Positions 46,471 through 48,748 of a stretch of DNA of 64,000 bases are shown piece by piece (positions within the stretch are counted from its first letter, which is position 1; each line of letters begins with the position of its first letter). A model generated the notes under the pieces. The model saw nothing but the letters and a program-made list of their open reading frames with translations, was not told the origin of the DNA and did no database searches. The DNA lies in assembly GCA_951406725.2 (NCBI GenBank), contig OX597816.1:12896001-12960000 (forward strand), read 5' to 3'. The translations under genes were made by a program, and so were the position numbers. This DNA is from Octopus vulgaris. Its lineage: Eukaryota.

Positions 46471-46655
46471 GTTAATCCAAACATGAACAAAGAGAAAACA
46501 GAACAACATGAGGGCGTGGAACACGTATAGTGTTATTGTACGCCCAGGAAAGGAAAGAAAGAAGATGGTTTTAATGTTTCGAGCGGAACTCTTCGTCAGA
46601 AACATAGAAAAAGGAAAGATTCTAGAAAGGGAAGACAGAGAAAGAAATTCGCCAT
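46471..46655 (-). mobile_element. Penelope-related short element, family P1
   Basis: Homologous to 54110-54318, abuts (TA)n, and contains a hammerhead motif. Confidence 0.75.
46568..46603 (-). ncRNA. Minimal type-I hammerhead ribozyme motif (stem III mutated)
   Basis: GTTT CTGACGA A GAGTTCCGCTC GAAA CATT AAAAC has intact CUGANGA and GAAA boxes. Confidence 0.65.
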
Positions 46656-46854
46656 AATGTTTCTATACACTAGGCCACTTGTAGTAAAAATTTCTAAAAT
46701 CTTTATTACCCTGATATTATTATTATACACACAGACACACACACACACACACACACACACACACACACACACACACACACACACACACACACACACACAC
46801 ACACACATACACATACACACACACACACACACACATACACCCACGGACATATAC

Positions 46855-47045
46855 AGTTGAAATTTACAGAAAAACAAAACACGAAGACAGGTGTAGGAAC
46901 AACAAGCAAGAGTATTAGTTTGACGCTCGAGAAGGTGAGAAAGTCTTTTACGTTTCGAGCCTACGCTCTTCACCAGAAAGAAACACAAAGAAATAATCTG
47001 AGAGACAATAAAAAAAAAATCTTTCGGAGTTAGCGGTCAATCATA
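46855..47045 (-). mobile_element. Penelope-related short element, family P2
   Basis: Homologous to 48582-48748. Confidence 0.75.
46944..46981 (-). ncRNA. Minimal hammerhead-like motif (core variant CUGGUGA)
   Basis: TCTTT CTGGTGA A GAGC GTAG GCTC GAAA CGT A AAAGA: 5-bp stem I, 4-bp stem II, palindromic ACGT stem III, GUA site. Confidence 0.6.
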
Positions 47046-47399
47046 TGCATACAGCAGACTTCTTTCCATTTCCGTCAATGCCTAAGAGACCGTACGTTTG
47101 TCTTTTTCGTCGATAATGATTCGCAAAATTTTCGAGCACCCTAACGGCCTATAAACGAGAAAATAATTGAATATTATTGAACATGAAAATATTATCCTTG
47201 GAATAATAATATGTTTAGCTGGACCCTAGAGATTGCACTCTCTAAATATTTGCATCAAGCATTCTTTTTGATTGCATAAACAAACAATAAAGATGTATCA
47301 AAATATAAATACCAATAATAAGCAAATTTTTTTTATAACAGTTCTGATCGATAATTGTAATAATGTTAATGTTGACAAGGTGATAATGATGTTTACATA

Positions 47400-47957
47400 A
47401 ATTGATGGTGAGGGTGGTGATGATGACGATGATGACGATTATGATCATCGCCATCATGATGAGGCAGGAGGACGCGGGGGAACTATGATGATGACGATGA
47501 TGACGATGATGCGATGATGGTGATTATGATGGTGATGACGATGGTGATGATGATTGCGGTGATGATGGTGGTAGTGGTAATGGTGATGGTTGTGACGATG
47601 ATAATCATGATGATGATGGTAACGATGATGATGATGACGTGGTTGGTGGTGGTGATGGTATTGATGATGACACTGATGATGAGAATGGTTACGATGATGA
47701 CGGTGGTAGTGGTGATGTTGATGATGGTTGTAATGATGATGATAATGATGATGATGATGGTGGTGACGACGATGATGATGACGATGAAGTGATTGGTGGT
47801 GGTGATTGTGATGATAATGGTTACGATGATGAAAGTGGTGGTGGTGTGATGATGGTTGCGATGTTGACACTGATGATGATGATGATGATGATGATGATGA
47901 TGATGATGATGATGATGATGATGATGAGGAGGAGGAGGAGGAGGAGGAGGAGGAGGT
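47400..47957. repeat. (GAT/GGT)n degenerate repeat ending in pure (GAT)n(GAG)n
   Basis: Direct reading. Confidence 0.95.
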
Positions 47958-48581
47958 GAATTGAGGTGACTAGAGTTGCAACGATAAGTTTCAAGCATGA
48001 TAATACATAAAACTAAAGGAAACAGAATATCCAACAAAACTGCATATTTATATTGGGATGTTCAGGAAACATAAGACGCCTACAGCAACCGAGGCGTTGA
48101 TTACGCTGTGAAAAGTCACTTAATTTCCCGCCTCTATGTAGAAAGGGGAAGATTATAATATATATATGTAAGTATGTATATATGTATGTATACACACACA
48201 TGTATGTATACACACACACATATATATATATAGAGAGAGAGAGAGAGAGAGAGAAATACATGCATGTATATGTATGTGTGTGCGTGTGTGTCTATATGTT
48301 TGTGTGCGTATGTGCCTGTGTGTGCCTATATCTGTGAATATATAAGTAGATATATGTACACACATGTATACATATTTATATGAACATATAAGTATATACA
48401 TATATATATATATATATACGTACGTACGTACGTACGTATGTATGTATGTATGTATGTATGTATGTATGTATGTATGTATGTATGTATGTATGTATGTATG
48501 TATTGTTCATCTCTCCTAACTCTCTATCCATGTTTATGTGTGTGTGTGTGTGTGTGTCTCTCTCTCTCTCTATATATATAG

Positions 48582-48748
48582 GGAGAGTTTACGAAAAAGC
48601 AAAAGACGAAGACAGGTGATGTACAAAACAAACAGATGTATTAGTATAACGCTCAAGAATAGAAAAAAGTCTTTTACGTTTCGAGCCTACGCTCTTCTAC
48701 AGAAAGGGACACAGAAAAAACAGGGAGAGAAACAAGGAGAGAAAAAAT
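48582..48748 (-). mobile_element. Penelope-related short element, family P2, with a hammerhead-like motif at 48671-48706
   Basis: CTTT CTGTAGA A GAGC GTAG GCTC GAAA CGT A AAAG. Flanked by (TA)n on both sides. Confidence 0.72.

What the first reader, a model, noticed from the sequence alone, without database searches (positions are those of the whole stretch)
46471..48748. Two families of ~170-210-bp non-coding elements carrying minimal hammerhead ribozymes, embedded in (TA)n/(CA)n
Seen: P1 (46471, 54110, 31225) and P2 (46855, 48582) share the layout stemI-CTGnnGA-A-GAGC(loop)GCTC-GAAA-CGT-H-stemI'. Stem I differs between families but stays paired (GTTT/AAAC versus TCTTT/AAAGA), the stem II loop changes (TCC versus GTAG), and in P2 stem III is the palindrome ACGT. 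Both P2 copies deviate at core position A6. Known: Penelope-like elements and retrozymes carry minimal type-I hammerheads with palindromic stem III that act as dimers. Inference: these are non-autonomous ribozyme-bearing mini-retroelements or solo pLTRs. The P1/P2 pair ~380 bp apart on the same strand could allow dimeric folding, although the P1 copy there has a mutated stem III. An A6 variant fixed in a family would be an atypical catalytic core.
Basis: partly seen in the sequence, partly recalled or inferred. Interest (0 to 1): 0.75.

Follow-up and report, generated by a model that had tools for sequence, protein, structure and literature searches.

The report
Penelope-element hammerheads with altered cores
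These short repeats are the clipped tail ends of two related Penelope-type jumping genes, and although they keep the shape of a self-cutting hammerhead RNA, tens of thousands of copies, including the youngest, carry changed core letters that would cripple cutting, so the fold likely matters to the element more than the cut does.

Summary
The elements are real, lie on the minus strand, and have minimal type-I hammerhead anatomy. They are not stand-alone mini-retroelements. P1 and P2 are 5'-truncated 3' ends (pLTR pieces) of two sister Penelope-like retrotransposon lineages (RT, CxxxxCxxC linker, C-terminal GIY-YIG; Neptune/Nematis type) inserted in (TA)n. Young pLTR-ORF-pLTR parents exist for both. 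Across seven P2 subfamily consensuses only positions 7 and 17 vary in 36 motif columns, against 73 of 136 flank columns. In P1, 74 of the first 100 listed copies carry U4C, and so does the youngest family with an unbroken ORF, which also has a stem I mismatch. The proposed P1/P2 heterodimer is predicted unfavourable (+2.4 kcal/mol); the adjacency reflects a shared (TA)n target. Truncated copies show no excess at the predicted cut site once TA microhomology is controlled (23 vs 19). Best reading: a retained hammerhead fold with weak or no cleavage, not needed for transposition. Rival: protein-assisted cleavage. No cleavage assay was possible. New variant of a known kind.

The parts
46471..46654 (-). 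P1a: 5'-truncated 3' end (pLTR piece) of P1-lineage Penelope-like element, canonical-core subfamily P1-A
   Evidence: 89.9% to P1-A subfamily consensus; best genome hits 87-90%; 3' end shared with the 29 closest copies
46569..46603 (-). P1a hammerhead motif: core CUGACGA (C3 at 46599), extra A, stem II with a G-U pair, stem III decayed to ACAU, 3-bp stem I; predicted cut between 46573 and 46572; likely dead copy
   Evidence: homodimer double hammerhead +10.0 kcal/mol
46727..46842 (.). (CA)n tract between P1a and P2a; part of the microsatellite into which P2a's 3' end runs
   Evidence: sequence
46856..47044 (-). P2a: 5'-truncated 3' end of P2-lineage element, older U7 subfamily
   Evidence: 92.5% to subfamily consensus; same subfamily copies L012 and L024 continue upstream into RT and GIY-YIG coding sequence
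46944..46981 (-). P2a hammerhead motif: core CUGGUGA (C3 at 46976; position 6 = G, subfamily consensus U), stem II GAGC/GCUC with GUAG loop, ACGU palindrome, 5-bp stem I; predicted cut between 46949 and 46948
48581..48748 (-). P2b: 5'-truncated 3' end of P2-lineage element, A7 subfamily, (TA)n on both sides
   Evidence: 95.7% to subfamily consensus; 39 other genome hits at 95-97%
48671..48706 (-). P2b hammerhead motif: core CUGUAGA (C3 at 48702; A6U as in the whole lineage), 4-bp stem I; predicted cut between 48675 and 48674
54102..54316 (+). P1b: P1 3' end closest to the C4 (U4C) subfamily; core decayed (G5A, GAAACGU destroyed)
   Evidence: 90.2% to P1-B consensus vs 87.3% to P1-A
31222..31361 (+). 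P1c: P1 3' end with the whole hammerhead removed by an internal deletion
30145..30208 (-).

Best explanation
P1 and P2 are 5'-truncated tail ends of two sister Penelope-like retrotransposon lineages inserted in (TA)n, and they carry a hammerhead-shaped motif whose core is changed in most copies (A6U across P2, U4C in most P1), so it likely cuts weakly or not at all and is likely kept for its fold. Steps. [quoted passage not shown] (2) Shown: copies end at a fixed point followed by (TA)n, and in the parents the same point is followed by TTATA or TATATAT inside the element. Inferred: the endonuclease nicks (TA)n and reverse transcription starts at this internal site. (3) Shown: 5' ends are ragged and pile up at TA dinucleotides of the element. 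Inferred: synthesis usually aborts within about 200 nt and is joined by microhomology, leaving solo tails. (4) Shown: the motif is nearly invariant across subfamilies while flanks and ORFs diverge, yet independent substitutions known to impair cleavage are fixed in the most successful subfamilies. Inferred: selection keeps the fold (stem II hairpin, GAAACGU palindrome, short stem I), most likely as a binding or dimerisation site in the element's ribonucleoprotein, and efficient self-cleavage is dispensable. Identity as Penelope-like tails: about 0.95. The attenuated-cleavage, retained-fold mechanism: about 0.55.
For: ORF linkage: L012 and L024; 27 of 30 endonuclease-selected loci have a P2 motif nearby, and 28 of 28 intact cores there are U6; L121 and L122 are flanked by two U6 pLTRs, those of L122 99.7% identical over 643 nt; RVT_1 E 8.4e-8, GIY-YIG E 0.005, below cut-off. 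P1: L225 and L229; ten long-frame copies fetched, nine of them about 99-100% identical in protein; 7 of the 8 5' motifs found are CCGACGA; 8 of 9 3' extensions hold the motif, all CCGACGA with stem I' AUAC. Counts: U6 15,730 vs A6 180; P1 first 100 of 11,417 listed: 74 C4, 24 U4, 2 A4 (hand count). Conservation: 2 of 36 motif columns vary vs 73 of 136 flank columns in P2, and 6 of 35 vs 103 of 168 in P1; ORF DNA of motif-sharing P2 subfamilies is only 78-91% identical to L122. A small P1 subfamily has G17 (4 copies). No cut-site excess: 23 junctions at the cut-site TA vs 19 at the loop II TA (hand counts; binomial p 0.64); in the A17 subfamily 4 clear (up to 7) at the cut vs 3, 1 and 4-5 at other in-phase A sites (hand count of 100 listed of 104). 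Literature: single changes in the CUGA turn give low activity (PMC9901934, passages); A6C is slow (PMC3088659, section 8; PMC7151607, passages); catalytic mutants of the anole PLE hammerhead still insert in vitro (PMC11167929, main-text section).
Against: The invariant positions are those needed for catalysis (C3, G5, G8, A9, G12-A14, A15.1-U16.1), and the two that vary in P2 (7 and 17) are the two a working hammerhead leaves free; this is what continued catalysis would give. The anole PLE hammerhead cuts only with its protein (PMC11167929), so protein-free mutational data may not apply. No binding or dimerisation role is shown. The junction test has no positive control from a canonical family, is hand-counted, and would miss cleavage followed by ligation. 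Elements for one search were extracted with a stem II-GAAACGU anchor (up to 3 mismatches), which inflates conservation there. Only one pair (outer stem I) shows two-sided change and stem II shows none, so a DNA-level constraint is not excluded. No P2 copy with an unbroken ATG-to-stop frame was found among the four full-length ones inspected, so P2 autonomy is inferred.
Confidence: 0.55

Rival explanations
1. Protein-assisted (or Mn2+-dependent) active ribozyme. The element's RT-EN protein, or pairing of the two pLTR copies through the ACGU palindrome, supplies the contacts lost by A6U or U4C. The RNA is still cut at GUH, perhaps ligated into a circle that templates the partial-tandem pLTR-ORF-pLTR copies.
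For: Catalytic positions are invariant while 7 and 17 are free across 7 P2 consensuses. P2 double hammerheads fold at -14 to -16 kcal/mol. Partial-tandem parents have variable 5' pLTR length (643 and 1389 nt). The anole PLE hammerhead needs protein to cut (PMC11167929). A6C keeps activity in Mn2+ (PMC7151607). Viroid U4C is weak in vitro but adequate in vivo (PMC3088659, passage).
Against: The youngest P1 family has U4C plus a U-U mismatch at the second pair of stem I; its double hammerhead scored +1.5 kcal/mol with stem I counted only to the first mismatch. A P1 subfamily with G17 spread. No cut-site excess among truncated copies. Catalysis was dispensable for insertion in vitro in the one PLE tested (PMC11167929).
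Confidence: 0.3
2. The stretch is conserved as DNA (internal pLTR promoter or endonuclease/RT recognition site) that descends from a hammerhead; RNA structure is now incidental.
For: Stem II shows no two-sided change in 22 distinct sequences and the P2 loop is invariant. The hammerhead is not the predicted minimum-energy monomer fold of the subfamily consensuses.
Against: The outer stem I pair switches among C-G, G-C, A-U and G-U with 21 of 22 paired. The loop changes length between P1 and P2 while the stem stays. Variation falls on positions 7 and 17, a pattern specific to hammerheads.
Confidence: 0.1
3. One reading: non-autonomous ribozyme mini-retroelements (retrozyme-like) of fixed 170-210 bp, with neighbouring P1 and P2 copies folding into an active dimer.
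For: Most copies are short and lack an ORF within 1.5 kb (2 of 29 P2a-like, 0 of 29 P2b-like, 0 of 29 P1a-like, 0 of 30 pattern-sampled P1). P2b and P2a could in principle pair (-15.0 kcal/mol, 1.7 kb apart). Short internally deleted masters cannot be excluded for some subfamilies.
Against: Ragged 5' ends, continuity into RT/EN, and pLTR-ORF-pLTR parents. No head-to-tail monomer arrays at these loci. P1a/P2a heterodimer +2.4 kcal/mol, and P1a's palindrome is broken.
Confidence: 0.05

Closest known systems
Minimal type-I hammerheads of metazoan PLEs (Cervera and de la Pena 2014, PMC4209133; read parts 1-2 of 4)
   Same: In pLTRs; mostly solo and attributed to truncated PLEs; extra nucleotide between 9 and 10.1; G10.1-C11.1; palindromic 15.2-16.2; 4-5-bp stem I; expected to work as dimers with low activity.
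   Different: The core variant named there is the compensatory U3-A8. Here non-compensated A6U (P2) and U4C (P1) are fixed in the dominant and youngest subfamilies, and stem II is 4 bp, not the 7-8 bp of the schistosome motifs.
Neptune/Nematis-type C-terminal EN+ Penelope-like elements (Craig et al. 2021, PMC8557442; passages)
   Same: RT, CX2-5CxxC linker, C-terminal GIY-YIG, partial-tandem pLTRs, inverted 5'-truncated neighbours, microsatellite bias, hammerhead near the 3' end.
   Different: Altered hammerhead cores; long (CA)/(CT)-rich 3' UTR (0.55-2.8 kb). Neptune versus Nematis was not resolved by a tree.
PAc (Poseidon, Anolis) protein-assisted hammerhead (PMC11167929; main-text section read)
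   Same: PLE hammerhead upstream of an internal RT start; AT-rich target; cleavage not needed for insertion in vitro; no RNA ends seen at the cut site.
   Different: PAc is reported to cut with protein and its motif overlaps the ORF start; here the motif lies 330-800 nt upstream of the ATG and has U-turn substitutions.
Natural core variants A6C (phage Bcep176) and viroid U4C (PMC3088659 section 8 and passages; PMC7151607 passages)
   Same: Substitution at the same U-turn positions, with low but detectable activity; A6C prefers Mn2+.
   Different: Those are single rare examples in phage or viroid. Here A6U and U4C occur in thousands of copies of recently mobile animal retrotransposons.
Animal non-LTR retrozymes (bioRxiv 10.64898/2026.07.22.740005, part 1 of 5 and passages; PMC7229834, search listing only)
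   Same: Type-I hammerhead in a short repeat related to PLE pLTRs.
   Different: Retrozymes are non-coding tandem monomers each with a motif; P1/P2 are dispersed truncation products of coding elements.

Membership tests
C-terminal EN+ Penelope-like element (Neptune/Nematis type) | PLE-type reverse transcriptase with DKG and YxDD motifs in a single ORF | tested here: met
   RVT_1 E 8.4e-8; DKG and RYIDD in both parents
C-terminal EN+ Penelope-like element (Neptune/Nematis type) | C-terminal GIY-YIG endonuclease | tested here: met
   Y(I/V)GQT, RxxEH and GLN motifs at the C-terminus; Pfam GIY-YIG E 0.005 but below the curated cut-off
C-terminal EN+ Penelope-like element (Neptune/Nematis type) | CX2-5CxxC linker between RT and EN (absent in Penelope/Poseidon, modified in Hydra) | tested here: met
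   CxxxxCxxC in both parents; definition from PMC8557442
C-terminal EN+ Penelope-like element (Neptune/Nematis type) | Partial-tandem pLTR-ORF-pLTR structure | tested here: met
   L121, L122; L322, L326, L327 and others
C-terminal EN+ Penelope-like element (Neptune/Nematis type) | Insertion bias for (TA)n microsatellites | tested here: met
   TA-type tract after the 3' end in 24/29, 28/29, 26/29, 28/30 and 19/20 copies vs 20% background
Neptune clade specifically | RT phylogeny placing it in Neptune rather than Nematis | not tested
Minimal type-I hammerhead ribozyme | Conserved core C3 U4 G5 A6 N7 G8 A9 and G12 A13 A14 | tested here: not met
   Met by subfamily P1-A (29 of 29 with U4 and A6); not met by P2 (U6) or by P1-B and the youngest P1 (C4)
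Minimal type-I hammerhead ribozyme | Stem II closed by G10.1-C11.1, with an extra nucleotide after A9 | tested here: met
   G-C in 22 of 22 distinct sequences, helix 98.9% paired; extra A invariant in alignment A1
Minimal type-I hammerhead ribozyme | Palindromic A15.1-C-G-U16.1 allowing a dimer stem III | tested here: met
   All 11 subfamily consensuses; broken in window copy P1a
Minimal type-I hammerhead ribozyme | Stem I of at least 4 bp with covariation | tested here: inconclusive
   96.6% of cells paired, one pair with two-sided changes; the youngest P1 family has a mismatch at the second pair
Minimal type-I hammerhead ribozyme | NUH cleavage triplet | tested here: inconclusive
   GUA, GUU or GUC in 10 of 11 consensuses; GUG in one P1 subfamily; the NUH rule is recalled knowledge
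Minimal type-I hammerhead ribozyme | Self-cleavage as monomer or dimer | not testable with these tools
   No assay; only assembled contigs were served, no raw reads; indirect junction test showed no excess
Non-LTR retrozyme | Head-to-tail tandem monomers, each with a hammerhead | tested here: not met
   Window copies and nearly all fetched loci are solo; occasional pairs are larger duplications or independent insertions
Non-LTR retrozyme | Non-coding unit not contiguous with an ORF | tested here: not met
   Contiguous with RT/EN in longer copies
Non-LTR retrozyme | Unit-length circular RNA | not testable with these tools
   No RNA holder on record

The most novel reading that the evidence does not exclude
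These lineages define a hammerhead that still cuts with U at position 6 or C at position 4 because the retrotransposon's own RT-endonuclease protein replaces the uridine-turn contacts: a natural protein-dependent hammerhead whose cleavage is switched on only inside the element's ribonucleoprotein.
Probability: 0.25. Interest if true: 0.75.

Novelty: new variant of a known kind. Interest (0 to 1): 0.5.

Why it matters
What the hammerhead of Penelope-like elements is for is an open question (PMC8557442 calls its function unclear; PMC11167929 found cutting dispensable for insertion in vitro). This genome offers a natural experiment: sister subfamilies with canonical, A6U, U4C and G17 cores, some only about 0.3% diverged and with an unbroken ORF, plus a canonical family in the same genome as a control. 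Either the fold has a non-catalytic job, or the protein rescues a crippled core; both can be tested with a few short RNAs and one protein. It also means that CUGANGA-based ribozyme surveys miss most copies of these families.

Tried and rejected
Rfam: the window scan was swamped by microsatellite/miRNA look-alikes, with no hammerhead among the 150 rows shown of 454, and there were no gathering-level hits in four reference loci; uninformative, since the fully canonical P3 locus was also missed. The repeat finder was swamped by microsatellites. Pfam on five decayed ORF fragments: 0 of 5 hits; the intact parent did hit. Expression and in vivo ends: no RNA holder listed; only contigs could be laid, no start/end pile-ups were listed, and contigs cannot show them; X1 and X5 have contigs covering U6, but RNA is only guessed for these runs. 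Cut-site footprint: the apparent pile-up (23 of 76 hits) was rejected after the loop II TA control (19 of 44) and the A17 subfamily; the three patterns use different anchors and each drops one phase of (TA)n. Alternative register (U3-U4-G5-A6 shifted by three) rejected: it works only for the U7 subfamilies and breaks stem II. A6 P2 copies as a separate large family rejected: of 23, 20 share position 7 with their nearest neighbour and 14 have a U6 nearest neighbour; a small older A6 branch (L141-L143, L159) is not excluded. P1a/P2a heterodimer rejected. The stem I and alternative-pair probabilities printed had an index error and were not used; only the folds were read. Lunse et al. 2017 (dimer-cleaving PLE hammerhead variants) is not held; it may describe position-4 or position-6 variants. 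Supplements of the papers read were not opened. Literature searches for these variants listed no report of A6U or U4C in PLE hammerheads or of hammerheads in cephalopod Neptune-type PLEs; the octopus repeat paper PMC13282606 has 0 occurrences of 'hammerhead' or 'ribozyme'.
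Full report
Setting. The window lies in a 2.8-Gb animal genome in 227 contigs. It is rich in microsatellites and LINE/SINE remnants, and its long open frames are almost all simple repeats or LINE pieces. 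That it is an octopus is my inference from size and repeat content, and earlier scan notes say the same; I did not establish it.

Observation. The five copies are present. P1a, P2a and P2b are on the minus strand with C3 at 46599, 46976 and 48702. A scan with free positions 6 and 7 found only P2a and P2b as complete minimal hammerheads in the window. P1a has a decayed palindrome, P1b a decayed core, and P1c lacks the motif. Exact core patterns occur 15,730 times (P2, U6) and 11,417 times (P1) in the genome, with 0 for reversed controls. In 40 stretches of 10 kb taken at round coordinates, BLAST found 10 P2 and 7 P1 copies. That scales to roughly 70,000 (34,000-129,000) and 49,000 (20,000-101,000) copies (Poisson, ignores clustering).

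What the elements are. The 29 closest copies of each query share a fixed 3' end and have ragged 5' ends. A TA-type tract follows in 24/29, 28/29, 26/29, 28/30 and 19/20 copies, against 20% of random windows. Most copies have no ORF within 1.5 kb (2/29, 0/29, 0/29, 0/30, 3/20). But L012 runs upstream into a PLE reverse transcriptase and L024 into a GIY-YIG endonuclease. Searching with that endonuclease gave 150 scored matches; 27 of the 30 fetched loci hold a P2 motif. Of 20 long-frame loci, L121 and L122 are pLTR-ORF-pLTR units with a motif in each pLTR. The L122 protein hits RVT_1 (E 8.4e-8) and weakly GIY-YIG (E 0.005, below cut-off). Fifteen other loci are 99.1-99.9% identical to L122 in ORF DNA, eleven of them over the full 1.5 kb. 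All four full-length P2 copies inspected have a frameshift in a proline-rich N-terminal stretch, so P2 autonomy is inferred. For P1, L225 and L229 link the tail to a related ORF. A search with that endonuclease exposed a very young family with 1008-codon open frames (949 aa from the first Met), nine of ten fetched copies about 99-100% identical in protein and 68% identical to the P2 protein. [quoted passage not shown] I did not separate the two. P1 and P2 tails also align with each other beyond the motif.

Insertion mechanism. In the 5' pLTR of the parents the end point is followed by TATATAT (P2) or AATTATA (P1) inside the element, and in the 3' pLTR by pure (TA)n. I infer internal initiation of reverse transcription on a nicked (TA)n target, as with the internal start sites of PAc (PMC11167929), although PAc's start site was reported not to be homologous to the cut DNA. 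Truncated copies join (TA)n preferentially at TA dinucleotides of the element. Shared targeting explains why P1a, P2a and P2b sit within 2.3 kb.

The core variants. P2: U6 15,730 versus A6 180, or 1.1%; G6 and C6 were not counted genome-wide. All four bases occur at position 7 and mark subfamilies. Among loci chosen by the endonuclease alone, 28 of 28 intact cores are U6; in the round-coordinate sample 7 of 8 are U6. Of 23 A6 copies, 20 share position 7 with their nearest neighbour and 14 have a U6 nearest neighbour, as expected for back-mutation, though a small older A6 branch may exist. Seven subfamily consensuses (155 of 181 copies; 26 unclustered left out) differ at 2 of 36 motif columns, positions 7 and 17, and at 73 of 136 flank columns (Fisher p 4e-8, columns not independent, stem II anchor biases it). 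ORF DNA of these subfamilies is 78-91% identical to L122. P1: P1a's subfamily is canonical (29 of 29). But 74 of the first 100 listed genome matches have C4 (hand count), as do 5 of 6 sampled copies. The youngest family has C4 in 7 of 8 5' pLTR motifs and in all 8 loci where a 3' motif was found (9 fetched), with a U-U mismatch in stem I. A small subfamily (4 clustered copies) has G17. A third family, P3, is canonical with a 5-bp stem I. On 22 distinct P1/P2 sequences 97.7% of stem cells pair; only the outer stem I pair changes on both sides (C-G 8, G-C 7, A-U 3, G-U 3), and stem II shows no two-sided change. Contigs of two other coded organisms (X17, X18) cover position 6 without a difference; these may be close relatives or mixed samples.

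Dimers. Double-hammerhead energies: P2 homodimers -13.9 to -16.1, P3 -27.1, P1-A -4.1, youngest P1 +1.5 (stem I counted only to its first mismatch), P1a +10.0, P2a/P1a +2.4, P2b/P2a -15.0 kcal/mol. In every case another fold is lower in energy.

Does it cut? Single changes in the CUGA turn gave low activity in a comprehensive screen (PMC9901934, passages). Natural A6C is slow and prefers Mn2+ (PMC3088659 section 8; PMC7151607 passages). Viroid U4C is weak in vitro but sufficient in vivo. Minimal PLE hammerheads cut poorly even as dimers (PMC4209133). The anole PLE hammerhead cuts only with protein, and its catalytic mutants still insert. As an indirect test I looked for truncated copies starting at the cut site. 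In the young P2 family 23 of 76 hits did (18 were indels or other, 1 ambiguous), against 7, 10 and 4 at other in-phase A sites (hand count). That site is also a TA, and the control TA in loop II took 19 of 44 (p 0.64). In the A17 subfamily, where the cut site has no TA advantage, 4 clear cases (up to 7) compare with 3, 1 and 4-5 (100 of 104 listed). So there is no footprint of cleavage, but the test lacks a positive control and would miss religated RNA. No raw RNA reads were available.

Verdict. Identity as Penelope-like tails is secure. The motif works like a minimal PLE hammerhead in anatomy but fails the core consensus in most copies. I put 0.55 on a retained fold with weak or no cleavage, 0.30 on protein- or metal-assisted cleavage, 0.10 on DNA-level constraint and 0.05 on the retrozyme model. 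Seven literature searches listed no report of these variants; Lunse et al. 2017 could not be read, and no supplements were opened. Earlier scan notes in this genome reach similar, unverified views and are not independent support. Novelty: new variant of a known kind; interest 0.5.

Noticed in passing
window 2197-2296 (-): Full-length U6 snRNA match, 57.2 bits, above Rfam's gathering score of 44; probably a retrocopy or pseudogene.
   Followed up: no
window 18020-20301 (-): Two open frames (343 and 351 aa) of a non-LTR retrotransposon RT and C-terminal region, interrupted by trinucleotide expansions; looks RTE/HERO-like by eye.
   Followed up: no
L312, L166, L168, L148, L170, L173, L175 (family P3): A third abundant hammerhead family with canonical core, 5-bp stems and the same extra A and ACGU palindrome; 6 copies in the 400-kb sample. 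Good positive control; parent not sought.
   Followed up: partly
about 20-35 nt downstream of the cut site in all 11 P1/P2 consensuses (window 46920-46926 for P2a): An invariant GAGCG block repeats the 5' strand of stem II and can pair with its 3' strand; the P1 consensus fold uses this pairing. A possible anti-hammerhead switch, no covariation seen.
   Followed up: partly
L203, L210, L212, L216, L222: P1 subfamily with G at position 17 and an A-U outer stem I pair.
   Followed up: partly
L121, L122, L123, L133: All four full-length young P2 copies have a frameshift in the proline-rich stretch between the first Met and the RT; it could be decay, assembly error or recoding.
   Followed up: partly
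L343 (about 870-1130); L271: Two element 3' ends face each other across one (TA)n tract, tail to tail (a similar opposed pair is listed), which may reflect priming from both nicked strands.
   Followed up: no
L124 168-2475: Near-perfect 338-bp tandem array upstream of a P2 ORF.
   Followed up: no
L141-L143, L159: Divergent A6 P2 copies (two with ORF upstream) that may be remnants of an older, pre-U6 branch.
   Followed up: partly
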